From positions 1 to 10,367 of IMG/VR virus record IMGVR_UViG_3300032893_000479: a stretch of 10,367 bases of DNA, one strand, 5' to 3'. Below the pieces are notes generated by a model. It saw only the letters and a program-made list of their open reading frames with translations, did no database searches and was not told the DNA's origin. Of the stretch, positions 1,636 to 10,367 are shown one piece after another. The DNA comes from a virus. Lineage: Duplodnaviria; Heunggongvirae; Uroviricota; Caudoviricetes. The first letter of the stretch is position 1. Every line of letters starts with the position of its first letter. The position numbers and the translations under genes were made by a program.

Positions 1636-3197
1636 GCCATCAGCCCGTCATCGTGTTGATAGATAGCGCTGTTGATATACAACTTTAAGGCGTCGCTGAT
1701 ATTTTGCGCCACTTCGTTGGCATCTTTCGCTTCGGTTATTACGTCGATTTTATCGATGCTGATTGAATTTTGCTGACTACGAGCTGTCGCCATATTTGTG
1801 ATCGAAGATGATGTCTGCGGCAGCAGCGGATTACGCGACATCATTGCTAATTGTTGTTGCGCGTTATTTGTCAGCGGATTTTCTATTTGCGGTAAATCAA
1901 CGGCACCGCTTTCTGGATTGAACATATCTTTAAATTTTTGCCATATTTCAGGTATTTTTGAAATTTTATCAACAACGAAATTGAAAACTTTTTGGACCCA
2001 GTTGAAATAAACTTCCCACGCTTTTGATGCAAACTCAGCGGCACTCGCGGCAGCTTCGCCAAACCATCGCAGCGCCTGCGCAGTTTTCGGAAAGCGTTTT
2101 TCCAGTTTGTCCAAAAATTTATCCATGCTTGCGCCAGCAGTTTCTAATGCGGCGCTAAAGCCTTTTGTAAAAACATCTGATAAGAAGTCGGCAACGATAC
2201 CGATCCATTCTTTCAAATATTTAAAAACTTCGACAACTTTATCGATTGCCTCTTTAAACAACGGATATTTTTTTGCCAACTCACCGATCACGCTTGCGTG
2301 ACCGTTTAAATACGCATTGAAATCGTCCCAAATAAGCGCGGCGGCGGCGGCCACTGCAATCAACGCCATCCACGGGGCGAGAAATGCAATGGTTGCAATC
2401 GTCGCTCTAACGAGCGCTGGAACAAGGATTCCCGATAATGCAACGCCAAGCGATACAAAAAATTTCGTCATGAATGCGCTGTTGTTTCGCATCCACATCA
2501 ATATTTTTTCCAGCAGTTTGAAAAACTCGGTGAGATATGGCATTACCGCCACGGCAAGCCGACGCTTGATATCTTCAAAAACTAAGTTCGTCATGCGTTG
2601 CTGAATCACGAACTTAGTTGAAATTTCGACTTGTTCTTTTGTTACAACGCCAAGTTCTTTTTGTTTGGCAATGAATTCGTCTAGCGCTTTGCCGCCCATT
2701 TGCAGCAGATTGATCGTGCCGATATCGAGACCGAAACGCTCGCCCAATCGTTGCGCTTGAATTTTGCTAAGCCCTTCGAATCTTCCCTGTATCTGCTTCA
2801 GCGTTTCGATAGGGTCGCGACCGTAACGACTCAATGCTTCAAGACTGCGCGCAAATCCTTCCGCCGTGCCGCCTGCTAGCTCCGCAGCCTGTGTCCACGC
2901 GCTATACTGCTCCGCCGATACTTTTGCTTGTTGCGCGTTTAGCCCGAGCTGTCGCGTGCTTTCAGCAACGTCGAATACCATCGATTTCAGGGAATGAAAT
3001 GCGAGAAAGCTCGCACCGAGCGACGCCGCACTTTTAACGGCATCGACAAGGTGCTTGCCGAGCATGTCGGCCGCTTTATCGGTTTTATTGAGGGTGTCGC
3101 CGAGTTGTTTGCTTTGCTTATCGGAATGCGCAAGCCCTTCGTCCAGTTTGCTGGCGTCGGATTCGAACAGGAAGTAAAAAACGTCGAGAATATTCAC
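1632..3197 (-). CDS. Tail tape measure protein (TMP)
   Basis: 521-aa ORF immediately 3' of the chaperone/frameshift pair. Predicted largely alpha-helical, with a long central hydrophobic segment (approx. residues 246..290, FFVSLGVALSGILVPALVRATIATIAFLAPWMALIAVAAAAALIW) typical of TMPs, plus regularly spaced aromatic residues. Apparent start is GTG at 3195..3197, preceded by AGGA at about 10-nt spacing. The stop overlaps the next gene as ATGA. Confidence 0.8.
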   Translation of the reverse strand: MNILDVFYFLFESDASKLDEGLAHSDKQSKQLGDTLNKTDKAADMLGKHLVDAVKSAASLGASFLAFHSLKSMVFDVAESTRQLGLNAQQAKVSAEQYSAWTQAAELAGGTAEGFARSLEALSRYGRDPIETLKQIQGRFEGLSKIQAQRLGERFGLDIGTINLLQMGGKALDEFIAKQKELGVVTKEQVEISTKFVIQQRMTNLVFEDIKRRLAVAVMPYLTEFFKLLEKILMWMRNNSAFMTKFFVSLGVALSGILVPALVRATIATIAFLAPWMALIAVAAAAALIWDDFNAYLNGHASVIGELAKKYPLFKEAIDKVVEVFKYLKEWIGIVADFLSDVFTKGFSAALETAGASMDKFLDKLEKRFPKTAQALRWFGEAAASAAEFASKAWEVYFNWVQKVFNFVVDKISKIPEIWQKFKDMFNPESGAVDLPQIENPLTNNAQQQLAMMSRNPLLPQTSSSITNMATARSQQNSISIDKIDVITEAKDANEVAQNISDALKLYINSAIYQHDDGLMA

Positions 3198-3756
3198 TAT
3201 CGATTATTCCTGTTCGCATGCTCTGCGGCTAAGTATTCGTTGGCGCGCCGTACAATCAGAACCTCCGCCATATCACAGAGGTCTTGCAACGTGTAGACCG
3301 TGGCCAGCTCATGCGGCGTCGCTAATCTTTCGCCGGTGACTGCGCCCGCAATTGGGTCAACATTTGCGTAATCAATGCTTGGAACTTGCCCGAGAATTGA
3401 TCGAGGTAATGTGACAGCGCGCCTTTCGCGAAAAAACTGCAATTGTATTCCATCATTGCCCACTCGATCCGTATCAGCGCCTCGTAATCTGGTACATGGT
3501 TGTTGATGAGATCGAGAGAACCCAACCGCAGAGGGTCGGCGCCCGCAATGGGCACCGCAACATGCGACAGAATTTTTATCATCAGCGCTTCGTTAGTTTT
3601 GTAGTCGCCAATTTTCGGCGCGGCAGTCAGCGGATATTGCGTGACAATTTCACGACCTGCCGTTGCCGAAAATTTACTGATGATAAAAATTTTTTCCGAT
3701 CCGTCCATGAGCTTTATCGGTTGTTCTTTTGGCTGTAGCAGCGGAAGATGATTCAT
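3197..3756 (-). CDS. Tail assembly chaperone, long form produced by programmed -1 frameshift (approx. 186 aa: frame 0 from 3756 to the slippery site, then -1 frame to 3197)
   Basis: Frame-0 codons AGT TTT TTC (plus coordinates 3438..3430) give, after a -1 slip, CAG TTT TTT CGC..., which continues open for 77 codons to a TAG at 3197..3199 that overlaps the TMP start. The -1 frame ORF has no credible independent start (the track's start is a GTG in the middle of the chaperone gene with no RBS). Confidence 0.55.
3322..3756 (-). CDS. Tail assembly chaperone (short, in-frame form; gpG/gp E-like role)
   Basis: 144-aa ORF immediately 5' of the tape measure gene. An overlapping ORF (3197..3463) in the -1 frame runs from inside this gene to exactly the TMP start, and a T_TTT_TTC slippery heptamer lies in the overlap. 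This is the conserved chaperone frameshift architecture of tailed phages. Confidence 0.65.
   Translation of the reverse strand: MNHLPLLQPKEQPIKLMDGSEKIFIISKFSATAGREIVTQYPLTAAPKIGDYKTNEALMIKILSHVAVPIAGADPLRLGSLDLINNHVPDYEALIRIEWAMMEYNCSFFAKGALSHYLDQFSGKFQALITQMLTQLRAQSPAKD
3430..3436 (-). other. Putative -1 programmed ribosomal frameshift slippery heptamer T_TTT_TTC (X_XXY_YYZ)
   Basis: Plus-strand gaaaaaa at 3430..3436 is TTTTTTC on the coding strand, positioned as T TTT TTC relative to the chaperone frame. It lies in the overlap between the chaperone ORF and the -1 frame extension ORF. A short GC-rich palindrome (CGCG AAAGG CGCG) follows immediately but is a weak and atypically close stimulatory element. 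Confidence 0.55.
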
Positions 3757-6709: not shown

Positions 6710-7245
6710 TTGCTGCCAACCTCGCTTGTTAGCGTGGCAATCATATGGTCGCTATCGTTCAGCGGCTTATCGCTGACGCCGCTATAATCTGGTGGATTCG
6801 GCCCCTTGAGCGCTGCCGCCGCTTCGCCGACAGTCTTCCCGGTAATTTTGCGCCCTTGTCTGCGCCATAAACGCAATACCATCGTAATGGGCGACAAAGG
6901 CGGTGTAAAAATGTTGGATAATGTTTGAAGAATATCGCCTTCGGCCTGTTGTGCAACGCCTTTCAAAACATCTTCAACGGTCAATTCGCCGCGCATAGCC
7001 ATTGCTGCACCTTCGCCCATTAACTTTTTCCATTCTTCGCCGCGCTGCGCTTCCGTTGTGCGCATGAATGAGCGCGAGCCACCGTCGCGAAATTCCTGTA
7101 TCGCCGCCACGTAGGCCACGGGGGTGCCGTCCTCGTATTTTGCAGACTCAAACCAACCGACACGCGATGCCAACTTGCTGAGCTTTCTGCTTTCTCGCTC
7201 GAATCTCAGCCGTGAGGCAGTTTTCTTATGCACCAATTTGCCCAT
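6706..7245 (-). CDS. Putative head-tail joining / head closure protein (HK97 gp10-like)
   Basis: The ORF track begins at a TTG (7246..7248), but the second codon is ATG (7243..7245) and overlaps the upstream stop as TGATG, so I place the start at 7245 (179 aa). The segment RVGWFESAKYEDGTPVAYVAAIQEFRDGGSRSFMRTT resembles the HK97 gp10 family pattern. Basic N-terminus. Position fits a neck gene. Confidence 0.45.
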   Translation of the reverse strand: MGKLVHKKTASRLRFERESRKLSKLASRVGWFESAKYEDGTPVAYVAAIQEFRDGGSRSFMRTTEAQRGEEWKKLMGEGAAMAMRGELTVEDVLKGVAQQAEGDILQTLSNIFTPPLSPITMVLRLWRRQGRKITGKTVGEAAAALKGPNPPDYSGVSDKPLNDSDHMIATLTSEVGSK

Positions 7246-7688
7246 CAAAAACTACCGCCAAATTTGCGGAAGCCTGCGCGCTCGCAGCTGCCGCCAATAT
7301 AAAAACCGCCTGACGATTTGACGCTGAAAAAAGCCCACAAACGCATGCCGTATGGCGTCAGAGATAGCCATTGCTGCCACGCATTTTTAACGGGTGGCGC
7401 TTGCACGGTGACGCTAACCTTATCGATCGATGACGCAGTGACCGCGCCGACTTGGCCTTGACCGCGCTGCGCGTTGAGATTTGCTTGCCACTGCATCATG
7501 TGAGCGGTCATCAAATAAAGCGCCTCGGTGATTTCTGCCGCGCTCATCAGACACCATTCCTGCGGATACAGATAAACTTTCGCCGTATCGAAATACGCTT
7601 GTATATAGGCGTCGGAATACGCCGAAGTGCTGGCGAATGCCGGAAATTCTGCGCGAAAATCTGCAATGACAATAACAATATCGCTCAT
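7245..7688 (-). CDS. Putative head-tail adaptor/connector protein (DUF4054-like by recollection)
   Basis: 147-aa ORF with ATG start and 4-nt ATGA overlaps to both neighbours. Small protein between a head-proximal gene and the neck genes. The N-terminal sequence (MSDIVIVIADFRAEFPAFAS...) resembles the phage adaptor family I recall as DUF4054; this was not verified by search. Confidence 0.45.
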   Translation of the reverse strand: MSDIVIVIADFRAEFPAFASTSAYSDAYIQAYFDTAKVYLYPQEWCLMSAAEITEALYLMTAHMMQWQANLNAQRGQGQVGAVTASSIDKVSVTVQAPPVKNAWQQWLSLTPYGMRLWAFFSVKSSGGFYIGGSCERAGFRKFGGSF

Positions 7689-9454
7689 GATTTTAACCCG
7701 TAAGCCGGTTTGACTCCCGAATAGTTTATCGTGTTTTCGTTCGAATAGACGGGGCTTTTGTAATTTTGCTCAGGAATCAAAATAGGCGGCGTGTAATTGT
7801 TGTCGAAAGTATCGCTAAACAACGACAAAGCGCGAGTGCGCAATCCGTTCAATGGTACGTAAAGGGGATCGCCGATTGTGTAAACGCCGTACCCCACCGC
7901 AGTGGCAGAGTCTTGATACAAACAAATTTCAGCTGCATTAAAACCGGAATAAATTGCGCTAATGTACAAATTAGAATACACGGCACCGGCTTCGCTTGGC
8001 TCAGTAACACATGCCGAAGAAAATACCGCACCCGAGCGAATAGCGCTAAGCACTCGGTTTTCGCAAGTGTACGTACTAGTTTTGAGCTGCCATCCGTTCG
8101 CGTAGCAATAAGCCGCAAGAGCGTCCCAAATTTGACGCATGCTCAAACCTTGCCACACCAATGAAAAACTTGTCGTCGTACCGTCTGCTTTTAGCACGAT
8201 GTTAGTCGTTGTCAAATCAATTTTTGCTGCCGTCGACGGTCCGCGCACGCCGAAAGTGGCTACGTAATTGCCGAGTTCATTTTTTATTTTTACTTGCATG
8301 ACGGGGCTGTTGCCAGCCGAATAATAGTTATTCCATTCGGCATCTTCGCTGCTGTCCCAACCGGCGACAATATTGCTGCCGGTCTGGATGTCGCCAGCTG
8401 CAAGGGGTGTCGTCCAACATACGCCTATCGGAAATAATGGCGCGGCCGGAGTGCTGGTGTGGAACACTGCGATGGCACCGAGCGCATATGAATAATCTGC
8501 AGCGACTTCAGCGGGACGATGCGGACCGTAATAACTATCGTCGAGCACCGCGCGCATGAATACGCCGCTGGTCGGCACGAAGCCGTCATTTCCGGGCGCT
8601 TCTATTGCGCCCGGACCTTCGTCGGGAAATATGCTCGGCGGATTGCCGCGATAGTATTGCGCAAGCCTGTCATCCAGATAGTACGGATAATTATCGATAA
8701 ATAAATTTTCTGTTTGTCGTCCGTTGCGATCGACGATGTTCGGAATGTTGAATTTCGGCGGTAAATGCACGGCAAGCGTGGTCACCCACGCTTGCCGGTA
8801 CGTCTGCGAGTAAAGTTTTGGAATACTCGTTCGATTTAATTGTTCGGCAGCAATGCTGCGATCGATGATACCTTTTGCAAAAGTCTCATCGTAGTTTGTC
8901 GATACCGGCATGTTGAAAACAGATACAACATCAAGCGGTGTCGTGTACGGGTGCAAATATTTTTGCGGATTGACTTCGACCATGAACGCGGGCAGCGTCG
9001 GCTTCGGACTGATCGGCAAATTTTGCAAATTGGCGTTTGCTTGCGCCTGCGTAGGATCAGGATTTGCAACAATGCCGACAGTAGAAATGTTTGGATTTGC
9101 TGCGATGTAATCGGAAATTTTGAAAAGATTTTTGCAGATCACTGAATTGGTCAAATCGCCAATACCGGGCAAATAAGGGAAATCGATCGCAGGACAAGTG
9201 CCAATGAAAAGAATAACTTTCAGGCCGCCTGCGACAGGATGATTAATCATCGTATCGAGAAAAGTTTTAACATCGGCCCACGTAGTCAATCTTGCCGATG
9301 TATCCAATGCGCCGGACAATAGTAATTTGTTTTGCGCGGGAACGTTGCGTTGCGCCATGTAATAATTGAGCACATCGACAGCGGCCGGCACTGACGAACG
9401 TGCGACAACGAGAATATCCGCAGGCGTGATAGGCACGGGGGTGATGATCGCCAT
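7685..9454 (-). CDS. Large hypothetical structural protein (589 aa); candidate major capsid or head decoration protein by position, function unknown
   Basis: Long uninterrupted minus-strand ORF with ATG start at 9452..9454, preceded by GGAG (plus coordinates 9463..9466) at 8-nt spacing. Sits immediately 5' of the putative head-tail adaptor gene and overlaps it as ATGA. Composition is N/S/T/Y/G/P-rich. I recognise no motif. Confidence 0.5.
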   Translation of the reverse strand: MAIITPVPITPADILVVARSSVPAAVDVLNYYMAQRNVPAQNKLLLSGALDTSARLTTWADVKTFLDTMINHPVAGGLKVILFIGTCPAIDFPYLPGIGDLTNSVICKNLFKISDYIAANPNISTVGIVANPDPTQAQANANLQNLPISPKPTLPAFMVEVNPQKYLHPYTTPLDVVSVFNMPVSTNYDETFAKGIIDRSIAAEQLNRTSIPKLYSQTYRQAWVTTLAVHLPPKFNIPNIVDRNGRQTENLFIDNYPYYLDDRLAQYYRGNPPSIFPDEGPGAIEAPGNDGFVPTSGVFMRAVLDDSYYGPHRPAEVAADYSYALGAIAVFHTSTPAAPLFPIGVCWTTPLAAGDIQTGSNIVAGWDSSEDAEWNNYYSAGNSPVMQVKIKNELGNYVATFGVRGPSTAAKIDLTTTNIVLKADGTTTSFSLVWQGLSMRQIWDALAAYCYANGWQLKTSTYTCENRVLSAIRSGAVFSSACVTEPSEAGAVYSNLYISAIYSGFNAAEICLYQDSATAVGYGVYTIGDPLYVPLNGLRTRALSLFSDTFDNNYTPPILIPEQNYKSPVYSNENTINYSGVKPAYGLKS

Positions 9455-10367
9455 TACAACAACTCCACGCAGACGGCGCGAGCGCTCATCGTGAACTCAT
9501 TCGGCGACACGATCGACAAGTTATTTATGCCGATAATCAAACGCACGTTGATATCGACAGATATGCAAGGATAATTTGTCGGACCGAAAGCGAAATCTCC
9601 GTTGTAAATGGGTATTGCGTCGCTAGGCGAACCGCCTTTTTTAATTGTCAATGTGCCGCCCGTATTCGACACGTGGAAAGGAATTTCAAAAGAGCCGACT
9701 TTTCCGGCGTATGTGCCGCGTGTGCCTTTTATGGCGACAAAAATTCGTCCAACAAGATCGCCTTGTCGGTTATTGGTGCCGGCCATTGACAAGAATTCGC
9801 CGCCAGAAGTGAATTGATCGAACGTAAAACGCGGTACGACTACGTCCACGCTTTGCGAAAATCCTTCATTCGCAAATACCACGCTATTGTTATACAGCGA
9901 GTCGATGCCGTAGCCGGCATGGAACAACGGCGAAATCGATGAGATTAGATTGCCGAACCCAAAAACGATATTTTGGCTTTGCAACTGATAGCCCGCATTT
10001 CCGCTCCCTATGCAAATACTGAAAGGGCCGGAAATACTGTTATTCATCCCCCATATGAAATTATAAATAACGTTCGCATTCGGATCGAAAGTAATATCGT
10101 CAAAAGTGATAACCGATTGTTGATATGCTTTGCCGAATTCTGCCGGCAATTGTTTGATTGCCGCTTTTGTTTTGATATTGTTGTAGCCGCTTGTCGCATC
10201 GCCGATATCAATATTGATGCTATACAGCATCGCGCTTAATGCCGGCACTACGCCGGACATCGAACACTGAAGTGCATTGCCAAAAAATCGAATTTCATTG
10301 ATCACGGTGGCGACGCCGACAGTCAGCATCGGCAGCTGAAAGACTGCGACTTTTTTAGCAGCGGTGC
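9454..10367 (-). CDS. Hypothetical protein, probably virion (head-associated) structural protein; 5' end likely outside the window
   Basis: Minus-strand ORF 9454..10329 (291 aa from the first ATG). The same frame stays open with no stop from 10330 to the window edge at 10367, and there is no Shine-Dalgarno motif before the ATG at 10329, so the true start is probably beyond the window. Stop TAA overlaps the ATG of the next gene by 1 nt (TAATG). Protein is rich in N/S/G/T/Y/F, which suggests a beta-rich structural protein. No family recognised. Confidence 0.5.
   Translation of the reverse strand, partial: TAAKKVAVFQLPMLTVGVATVINEIRFFGNALQCSMSGVVPALSAMLYSINIDIGDATSGYNNIKTKAAIKQLPAEFGKAYQQSVITFDDITFDPNANVIYNFIWGMNNSISGPFSICIGSGNAGYQLQSQNIVFGFGNLISSISPLFHAGYGIDSLYNNSVVFANEGFSQSVDVVVPRFTFDQFTSGGEFLSMAGTNNRQGDLVGRIFVAIKGTRGTYAGKVGSFEIPFHVSNTGGTLTIKKGGSPSDAIPIYNGDFAFGPTNYPCISVDINVRLIIGINNLSIVSPNEFTMSARAVCVELL
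9463..9466 (-). promoter_or_regulatory. Shine-Dalgarno motif (GGAG) for the 589-aa gene
   Basis: Minus-strand sequence GTGGAGTTGTTGTA ATG: GGAG lies 8 nt upstream of the ATG at 9452..9454, inside the 3' end of the upstream gene. Confidence 0.4.

What the first reader, a model, noticed from the sequence alone, without database searches (positions are those of the whole stretch)
9454..10367. N/S/G-rich ORF running off the window edge, head-proximal and of unknown family
The frame stays open to position 10367 and the ATG at 10329 has no RBS, so the protein is longer than 291 aa. Its composition (many N, S, G, T, F, I, few charged residues) resembles beta-rich structural or decoration proteins. 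Together with the 589-aa gene it forms a head-proximal pair that I cannot assign. Which of the two, if either, is the major capsid protein is unresolved from sequence alone.
Basis: seen in the sequence. Interest (0 to 1): 0.4.

Follow-up and report, generated by a model that had tools for sequence, protein, structure and literature searches.

The report
Orphan phage fibre-like gene, not capsid
The open reading frame is a real 369-residue phage gene whose start lies 196 bases beyond the window. It is not the capsid protein: most likely it is a fibre or spike protein, with an N-terminal motif shared with tail fibres of other phages and an otherwise unique body, so it is a fairly ordinary find.

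Summary
The minus-strand frame 9454-10367 is open to the window edge, and the ATG at 10329 is an internal Met79.

The parent contig (ENA k141_1519920, 22.7 kb) gives the full gene. It is 369 aa, with an ATG 196 nt beyond the window and a GGGGA ribosome-binding site 7 nt upstream.

The window belongs to an E217/PB1-like myovirus. Portal, MuF, scaffold, cement protein and the HK97-type major capsid protein (377 aa, about 55% identical to annotated capsid proteins) all lie further upstream. Neither the 369-aa nor the 589-aa protein is the capsid protein.

The pair is a 2.9-kb lineage-specific insertion between the conserved gp26-like gene and the gp27 head-to-tail adaptor gene. These two genes are adjacent in 33 of 34 related loci.

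Both proteins are sequence orphans. Nothing matched among about 15 billion proteins, Pfam, PHROGs, NCBIfam, PADLOC or PDB. AlphaFold single-sequence models failed (pLDDT 32).

One informative match exists. Residues 1-44, which lie outside the window, fit a Met1-anchored motif (42.8 bits). The same motif heads collagen-like, BppL_N-containing and tailspike-like phage fibre proteins.

Best reading: an accessory trimeric fibre or receptor-binding protein with a novel distal domain, possibly working with the 589-aa partner. Its attachment site is unknown. It is a new member of a known kind, of modest interest.

The parts
9454..10367 (-). C-terminal 303 codons (residues 67-369) plus the stop of the 369-aa orphan gene P0001. 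The first 66 codons, including the informative N-terminal motif (residues 1-44), the ribosome-binding site and an upstream terminator-like hairpin, lie beyond the window edge (L001 6522-6761).
   Evidence: No homologue.
7685..9454 (-). 589-aa orphan partner gene P0003. Its ATG overlaps the stop of P0001 (TAATG) and its end overlaps the start of the gp27 adaptor gene by 4 nt (window 7685-7688). The only hint is that residues 13-46 resemble the N-terminus of TIGR03790, at 21 bits against a cut-off of 67.
7245..7688 (-). Head-to-tail adaptor gene (DUF4054 / E217 gp27 family). This is the conserved downstream flank of the insertion.
   Evidence: role of gp27 from PMC10329688

Best explanation
P0001 is a late-expressed virion appendage protein of the fibre or spike (receptor-binding) type. 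It belongs to a two-gene cassette inserted between the gp26-like gene and the gp27 adaptor gene of an E217/PB1-like myovirus. Its first 44 residues or so form a short module, with a Pro-rich leader followed by an amphipathic helix. In other phages the same module sits at the extreme N-terminus of trimeric fibre or tailspike proteins. Here it most likely nucleates trimerisation and/or docks the protein to the particle. Residues 45-369 are a unique, beta-rich, poorly charged domain that would be the distal, host-surface-binding part. That would explain why it has no detectable homologue, since distal receptor-binding domains turn over fastest. The translationally coupled 589-aa protein is probably a co-assembling partner, either a distal subunit, an enzymatic subunit or an assembly factor. 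What is shown: the gene model, the insertion, the orphan status, membership of the N-terminal module, and the composition. What is inferred: trimer formation, incorporation into the virion, receptor binding and the role of the partner. Whether it attaches at the neck or head (suggested by gene position) or at the baseplate is open; I rate the two about equally likely.
For: (1) The gene sits inside the late structural operon, between the capsid and neck genes. It is tightly coupled to its neighbours and has codon usage typical of this phage.
(2) A profile built from the N-termini of 14 other proteins, with P0001 left out, scores P0001 at 42.8 bits (E 1.8e-15 for one sequence). The match runs Met1 to Met1. 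The next best unrelated ORF among 1,917 held ORF segments scores 6.6 bits (an earlier 4-sequence profile gave 43.4 bits).
(3) Proteins carrying the module are fibre or spike proteins:
- L054 389 aa has Pfam Collagen (4.6e-20) starting right after the module, and many tail-fibre PHROGs (phrog_6320, 2e-36).
- L052 578 aa has two BppL_N matches and tail-fibre PHROGs.
- L062 873 aa matches the PDB 7vul tail fibre protein (4e-24).
- L063 has three tandem paralogues.
- L065 and L061 have tail-fibre-like repeats.

(4) The module family is real independently of P0001. The L054 N-terminus matches RP13 ORF45 at E 3e-5, and a consensus query matches it at 9e-9, across the whole phage collection.
(5) P0001's composition (DEKR 0.12, GNST 0.32) matches the sheath (0.13/0.33), the cement protein (0.10/0.33) and the canonical tail fibre (0.12/0.37). 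It does not match internal or enzymatic proteins (0.25-0.32).
(6) The only other insertion at this junction among 34 related loci (L023) also carries structural cargo: a phrog_3758 virion structural protein and an extended adaptor.
Against: Nothing beyond residue 44 matches anything, so the distal-domain function is pure inference. Both AlphaFold2 single-sequence models are unusable (pLDDT 32.0 and 32.3), so no fold evidence exists. The module carriers were collected with patterns derived partly from P0001, which inflates the profile score somewhat. P0001 also has Q where the family has a nearly invariant N (RAQF instead of RxNF). The phage already has a canonical tail fibre (535 aa, phrog_26622) after the baseplate wedge genes, so a second fibre is not required. 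Fibre genes are not normally found between the capsid and adaptor genes in this phage group. The strongest solved-structure match of the module is marginal: P22 tail-needle gp26 coiled coil, E 0.012, summed over repeats.
Confidence: 0.58

Rival explanations
1. The cassette is a non-structural accessory insertion (a moron). It would be expressed late but act in the infected cell, for example in superinfection exclusion, host-envelope modification or anti-defence. The N-terminal resemblance would then be a recycled helix with no structural role.
For: The pair is absent from 33 of 34 related loci, so it is dispensable for virion assembly in this phage group. Both proteins are orphans. A strong terminator-like hairpin directly precedes the cassette and was not seen at this junction in most relatives. 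The 589-aa protein has a weak alpha/beta, enzyme-like N-terminal hint (TIGR03790, 21 bits).
Against: There is no promoter-like site between the hairpin and the ATG (20 nt). There are no flanking repeats or mobile-element marks. Codon usage is fully that of the phage. There is no PADLOC hit. The composition is that of exposed virion proteins. The module is so far seen only on fibre or spike type proteins, or on short ORFs inside structural modules.
Confidence: 0.2
2. A variant of the best explanation with a specific location: a head or neck fibre (analogous to phi29 gp8.5 head fibres or T4 fibritin whiskers) that docks on the capsid, the gp27 adaptor or the gp28 collar, not on the baseplate.
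For: Gene order in structural modules usually follows assembly neighbours, and the cassette lies exactly between the capsid/gp26-like genes and the adaptor gene, with which the 589-aa gene overlaps. In L054 two module-bearing fibre genes lie between the portal and the head maturation protease. In L023 the same junction holds an adaptor with a ~450-aa N-terminal extension. The canonical tail fibre slot is already occupied.
Against: Most other carriers of the module sit with tail genes or just before lysis genes, and have tail fibre or tailspike domains. No docking partner was identified. The phi29 and T4 analogies rest on my knowledge of those systems, not on any similarity tested here.
Confidence: 0.28
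3. One reading: one of the pair is the major capsid protein or the capsid cement/decoration protein.
For: Only the head-proximal position and the beta-rich composition.
Against: A bona fide major capsid protein (377 aa; PF09950; 52-55% identical to the best annotated capsid proteins, with matches in 560 phage records) and an E217-type cement protein (PF22758) are encoded upstream on the same contig. Neither orphan hits any capsid, scaffold or cement family in Pfam or PHROGs, even at E up to 10. E217 needs only gp24 and gp25 for its T=9 shell (PMC10329688).
Confidence: 0.03
4. The ORF is not a gene, merely a chance open frame.
For: There is no homologue, so conservation cannot be tested.
Against: The ORF has 369 codons at 48.7% GC. 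It has a ribosome-binding site, its stop and the next start overlap, its codon usage and GC3 are typical of the phage, and Met1 aligns with a recurrent N-terminal module. No competing ORF longer than 88 aa lies on the other strand.
Confidence: 0.01

Closest known systems
Uncurated N-terminal fibre module: M-[AV]-S-x-I-D-P-T-x-P-x-x-G-(6-7 residues)-R-x-N-F-x-x-A-x-x-[DE]-I-x-x-L-Q. Carriers include Ralstonia phage RP13 ORF45 (BCG50063.1), Thiohalocapsa phage LS06-2018-MD04 TPMD04_24 (WBC28574.1), and IMG/VR proteins in L052, L054, L055 and L058-L065.
   Same: The first 44 residues or so of P0001 align from Met1 with 34-45% identity and score 42.8 bits against the family profile. Carriers lie in structural gene modules. 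The long ones have collagen, BppL_N, tailspike or tail-fibre domains after the module.
   Different: Everything after residue 44 is unrelated to any carrier. P0001 has Q25 in place of the near-invariant N and a 2-residue insertion. It is the only carrier seen in an E217-like myovirus and the only one between a capsid gene and an adaptor gene. The module has no Pfam or PHROG model and no solved structure, so its exact role (trimerisation or docking) is unknown.
E217/PB1-like tail fibre (E217 gp46; here the 535-aa protein at L027 13731-15338)
   Same: In E217 the fibre N-terminus forms a trimeric coiled coil that docks on a loop of baseplate protein gp45 (PMC10329688). That is the kind of N-terminal attachment proposed for P0001. 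The two have similar composition.
   Different: There is no sequence similarity. The canonical fibre has its own N-terminal domain (phrog_26622) and sits after the wedge genes. P0001 is an extra gene at a different position.
phi29 gp8.5 head fibre and T4 fibritin (Wac). This is an analogy from established knowledge, not tested here.
   Same: These are dispensable trimeric fibres encoded next to capsid or neck genes, with an N-terminal anchor and a helical segment. They are attached to the head or neck and aid adsorption.
   Different: No sequence or fold similarity could be tested. P0001 has at most about 3 heptads of predicted helix, not a long coiled coil, and comes with a 589-aa partner.
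E217 gp25 major capsid protein and gp24 cement protein
   Same: Head-proximal position and a beta-rich, low-charge composition.
   Different: Both families are present as separate genes upstream on the contig. P0001 and P0003 match neither.

Membership tests
HK97-fold major capsid protein of E217/PB1-like phages (PF09950) | Sequence match to the capsid family, and being the only such gene in the head module | tested here: not met
   No Pfam or PHROG hit for P0001 or P0003 at E up to 10. The capsid gene is L001 4913-6046.
E217 gp24-type cement/decoration protein (PF22758) | Match to the beta-tulip cement family | tested here: not met
   No hit. A separate 168-aa PF22758 gene lies upstream of the capsid gene.
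N-terminal fibre module family (uncurated; defined here from 14 carriers) | Motif anchored at Met1: S3, I5-D6-P7, P10, G13, R23, N25-F26, A29, I33, L36-Q37 | tested here: met
   42.8 bits, E 1.8e-15 for one sequence, profile positions 1-42 against residues 1-44. All invariant columns are kept. The near-invariant N25 is Q in P0001. Caveat: the carriers were partly ascertained with P0001-derived patterns.
N-terminal fibre module family (uncurated) | The module is followed by a recognisable fibre or spike domain (collagen repeats, BppL_N, beta-helix tailspike, tail-fibre repeats) | tested here: not met
   Residues 45-369 match no family and no other carrier. There are no Gly-X-Y runs and no internal repeats. 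Short carriers (127-152 aa) also lack such domains.
Phage tail fibre / tailspike (receptor-binding protein) in general | Homotrimeric, elongated, beta-structured fold incorporated in the virion | not testable with these tools
   AlphaFold2 without an alignment gave pLDDT 32. No homologues exist to build an alignment. Virion incorporation needs proteomics or cryo-EM.
TIGR03790 family (for the 589-aa partner) | Whole-protein score at or above the NCBIfam cut-off of 67 bits | tested here: not met
   21.4 bits; only residues 13-46 align to profile positions 2-35 of 316.
Known anti-phage defence or counter-defence proteins (PADLOC-DB) | Match to any PADLOC model | tested here: not met
   No hit for either protein at E up to 0.1.

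The most novel reading that the evidence does not exclude
The 369/589-aa pair would be a previously unseen head- or neck-attached receptor-binding appendage of an E217-like contractile-tailed phage, built from two orphan folds. The gp26-like/gp27 junction would be a recurrent docking and insertion point for neck decorations in this phage group. The second example would be L023, where the adaptor itself carries a ~450-aa outward extension. The ~42-residue N-terminal module would then be an undescribed, portable attachment or trimerisation tag, exchanged among myo-, podo- and other phages.
Probability: 0.2. Interest if true: 0.5.

Novelty: new member of a known kind. Interest (0 to 1): 0.3.

Why it matters
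If the reading is right, this uncultured phage carries an extra receptor-binding appendage with a completely new distal domain. It would add one data point on how contractile-tailed phages of the therapeutically used E217/PB1 type gain host-range modules. It would also bring out a short, uncurated N-terminal motif that could help annotate fibre and spike genes now labelled "hypothetical". By itself it does not challenge any current view: orphan fibre genes in poorly sampled phage lineages are common, and here the capsid protein is at most 60% identical to anything public.

Tried and rejected
**Searches for homologues**
- Word-indexed search of P0001 and P0003 against 5.8 billion clusters returned only the proteins themselves.
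- Exhaustive phmmer of P0001 against 1.84 billion representatives gave itself plus P0002. P0002 is a 758-aa protein of tandem internal repeats (fasciclin/FAS1-like by my reading; no family scan was run on it). Four of those repeats each match the same 44-residue stretch, so I rejected it as a repeat-inflated chance hit.
- The third homologue search, spent on a 2-sequence N-terminal alignment, returned nothing, not even the query itself.
- Pfam, PHROGs, NCBIfam and PADLOC found nothing for P0001.
- PDB sequence searches found nothing significant.
- tblastn against 50,697 phage records found nothing for either full protein.

**Structure**
- AlphaFold2 single-sequence models of both proteins were unusable (pLDDT 32). 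I therefore ran no fold search, since matches to such models are meaningless.

**Other checks**
- Self-comparison found no internal repeats in either protein and no similarity between them.
- A search for closer relatives of the phage, to date the insertion, found none above 60% capsid-protein identity in IMG/VR or JGI metagenomes.
- The gp27 and P0003 queries found nothing in IMG/VR.
- No repeats or mobile-element marks flank the cassette.
- The window holds no tRNA or Rfam feature.
- Literature searches for the motif strings and for the run accession found nothing.
- The idea that residues 172-235 are YadA-like (Hep_Hag) head repeats was considered from memory. The Pfam scan at E up to 10 does not support it.
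Full report
**Observation**

All long ORFs of the window are on the minus strand. The frame ending at the TAA stop at 9456-9454 is open up to base 10367. The ATG at 10329 has no Shine-Dalgarno sequence.

An exact-sequence look-up of the neighbouring 589-aa protein recovered the parent contig, ENA ERZ27256510 k141_1519920, 22,694 bp. The window is the reverse complement of L001 6762-17128. On the contig the ORF begins at L001 6566, 196 nt beyond the window, with GGGGA 7 nt upstream. It encodes 369 aa, and the ATG at 10329 is Met79.

D+E+K+R is 12.2%, against 21.3% in the other proteins. I, G, A, S, N, F and T are enriched. Codon usage and GC3 are indistinguishable from the flanking phage genes.

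**Genomic setting**

Pfam and PHROG scans identify the window as the neck-to-baseplate part of an E217/PB1-like myovirus:
- gp27 adaptor (DUF4054)
- Neck1
- gp28 collar
- gp29 gateway
- sheath (DUF3383)
- tube (E217_Gp32)
- chaperone
- tape measure
- Dit-like protein
- E217_GP41

The functional names come from the E217 cryo-EM study (PMC10329688).

Upstream of the finding, the contig carries the following genes:
- a truncated 254-aa ORF of unassigned function at the contig end
- portal
- MuF
- the Pa193_gp24-type scaffold
- a PF22758 cement protein
- a 377-aa major capsid protein, 52-55% identical over about 99-100% of its length to the best annotated capsid proteins (matches in 560 phage records in all)
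- a 129-aa gp26-like protein (phrog_3714)

Neither the 369-aa nor the 589-aa protein is the capsid or cement protein.

Downstream of the baseplate wedge genes, the phage has a canonical 535-aa tail fibre (phrog_26622), followed by lysis genes.

**The pair is an insertion**

I collected 34 related loci in which both the capsid and gp27 genes were seen. They came from INPHARED, IMG/VR and JGI metagenomes, with some redundancy.
- In 33 of them the distance from the capsid gene to gp27 is 424-657 nt, which just fits the gp26-like gene.
- In this phage the distance is 3,398 nt.
- The one other exception, L023 (2,253 nt), holds a phrog_3758 virion structural protein. It also holds a gp27 domain that lies in one ORF with a ~450-aa N-terminal extension.

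No repeats or mobile-element marks flank the cassette. A 10-bp GC-rich hairpin followed by U residues precedes it. That hairpin is absent at this junction in most relatives.

No relative has a capsid protein more than 60% identical. The lineage is poorly sampled, which makes orphan accessory genes unsurprising.

**Orphan status**

P0001 and P0003 found only themselves among 5.8 billion clusters. Exhaustive phmmer of P0001 against 1.84 billion representatives added only a spurious hit to a protein of tandem internal repeats. Pfam, PHROGs, NCBIfam, PADLOC, PDB sequences and tblastn against 50,697 phage records gave nothing.

The sole exception is a sub-threshold TIGR03790 N-terminal match for P0003: 21 bits against a cut-off of 67.

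AlphaFold2 without an alignment failed for both proteins, with pLDDT 32.0 and 32.3. I therefore ran no fold search.

**The one informative signal**

The part of P0001 that lies outside the window is its N-terminus: MVSRIDPTQPPQGQTPASSATLRAQFASAAQDIDDLQAQI.
- A weak tblastn hit to Ralstonia phage RP13 ORF45 aligns Met1 to Met1.
- Pattern scans of IMG/VR then recovered 13 more carriers.
- The Thiohalocapsa phage LS06-2018-MD04 protein TPMD04_24 also carries the motif.
- A profile built from the 14 other N-termini scores P0001 at 42.8 bits (E 1.8e-15 for one sequence), over profile positions 1-42 and residues 1-44. The best unrelated ORF among 1,917 held segments scores 6.6 bits.

The family exists independently of P0001. 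The L054 N-terminus and the consensus query hit RP13 at E 3e-5 and 9e-9 across the whole phage collection.

One caveat applies. The scan patterns were partly derived from P0001, so the score is somewhat inflated. P0001 also replaces the near-invariant N25 by Q.

The module has no Pfam or PHROG model and no solved structure. Its best PDB match is marginal: the trimeric coiled coil of the P22 tail needle gp26, at E 0.012.

**What carries the module**
- L054 389 aa: collagen triple-helix repeats begin right after the module (Pfam 4.6e-20), with many tail-fibre PHROGs. It is followed by a 229-aa paralogue. Both lie between the portal and the head protease.
- L052/L053 578 aa: BppL_N matches and tail-fibre PHROGs, followed by a SPRY/DUF7483 structural protein.
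- L062 873 aa: homologous to the PDB 7vul tail fibre (4e-24).
- L063: three tandem 480-491-aa paralogues after a 1,150-aa protein.
- L061, L064, L065: tail-fibre-like repeats, judged by eye.
- RP13 ORF45, L055 and L060: short proteins of 127-152 aa, each followed by a larger ORF. RP13 ORF45 lies just after a baseplate wedge gene.

The module therefore marks the N-terminal end of fibre or spike type virion proteins across different phage types. Collagen directly after it implies that it sits at the end of a trimer.

**Mechanism proposed**

P0001 is an accessory fibre or receptor-binding protein.
- The N-terminal module serves trimerisation and/or docking.
- The unique beta-rich body (residues 45-369) binds the host surface.
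- The translationally coupled 589-aa protein acts as co-assembling distal subunit, enzymatic subunit or assembly factor.

Composition supports an exposed virion protein. By amino-acid composition, P0001 is closest to the sheath and baseplate proteins of the contig. Its charged and G/N/S/T fractions match those of the sheath, the cement protein and the canonical tail fibre.

The attachment site is open. Gene position, the L054 arrangement and the extended adaptor in L023 argue for the neck or head. The context of most other carriers argues for the tail.

My confidence that it is a virion fibre or spike type protein is about 0.58. The main rival, at about 0.2, is a non-structural late accessory gene. 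The capsid/decoration and spurious-ORF readings are effectively excluded.

**Comparison and novelty**

P0001 works like a modular phage receptor-binding protein, with a conserved N-terminal end and a fast-evolving distal domain. It meets the sequence definition of the uncurated N-terminal module family. It fails to show any of the downstream domains seen in the long carriers. Membership of the tail fibre/tailspike class by fold cannot be tested here.

I rate it a new member of a known kind, interest about 0.3.

The most novel reading not excluded is a head- or neck-attached appendage at a recurrent insertion junction of E217-like phages, using a portable attachment tag (probability about 0.2).

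Noticed in passing
window 3430-3436 (minus strand), in the overlap of ORFs 3322-3756 and 3197-3463: A slippery heptamer T_TTT_TTC lies in the zero frame of the 144-aa ORF. The 88-aa ORF is in the -1 frame, and the tape-measure gene is directly downstream. This is the classic programmed -1 frameshift of tail assembly chaperones (G/GT type).
   Followed up: partly
L023 7548-9746 (IMGVR_UViG_3300033120_000739): This is the only other insertion at the gp26-like/gp27 junction among 34 related loci. It holds a 133-aa phrog_3758 virion structural protein, and a gp27 (DUF4054) domain fused in one ORF to a ~450-aa N-terminal extension (GC3 0.80 in that frame). The extension contains two segments that look alike by eye, though a BLAST self-comparison did not confirm this. 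It may be an adaptor that displays extra domains at the neck.
   Followed up: partly
L001 1-44 of P0001 (outside the window); L026 4001-4381; L052 5001; L054 5001 and 6181; L055, L058-L065; L066 6001-7065: A roughly 42-residue, Met1-anchored N-terminal motif (MASNIDPTKP..G..TT.SVRANFQAAK.EIEALQ) is shared by fibre or spike proteins of unrelated phages. It has no Pfam or PHROG model, and its carriers are annotated only as 'hypothetical protein' in the two deposited phages that have it (RP13 and Thiohalocapsa phage LS06-2018-MD04). Short carriers (127-152 aa) are each followed by a larger ORF.
   Followed up: partly
L001 6522-6548 (would be window 10581-10607, beyond the edge): A 10-bp GC-rich hairpin followed by U residues (about -25 kcal/mol for the 76-nt stretch) lies between the gp26-like gene and the start of P0001, only about 20 nt before the ATG. 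It may be a leaky terminator that lowers expression of the cassette and neck genes relative to the capsid genes. It is not obvious at this junction in most relatives.
   Followed up: partly
whole contig (L001, L027): The phage lineage is isolated. Its capsid protein is at most 60% identical to anything in INPHARED, IMG/VR or JGI metagenomes. The same phage is 100% identical at nucleotide level over 6,769 bp in JGI contig Ga0335069_10034821, and its 276-aa E217_GP41-type protein is encoded with 100% amino-acid identity on a Logan contig from run SRR8879131.
   Followed up: partly
window 7685-9454, residues 13-46 of the 589-aa protein: There is a sub-threshold match to the N-terminus of the uncharacterised family TIGR03790 (21 bits, cut-off 67). 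The low-confidence AlphaFold model shows a beta-alpha-beta pattern there, which hints at an alpha/beta (enzyme-like) N-terminal domain.
   Followed up: no
L027 15348-16346 (outside the window): A lysis cassette (lipoprotein-like 94 aa, endolysin-like 142 aa, holin DUF7940 91 aa) follows the canonical 535-aa tail fibre gene directly, at the end of the contig.
   Followed up: no
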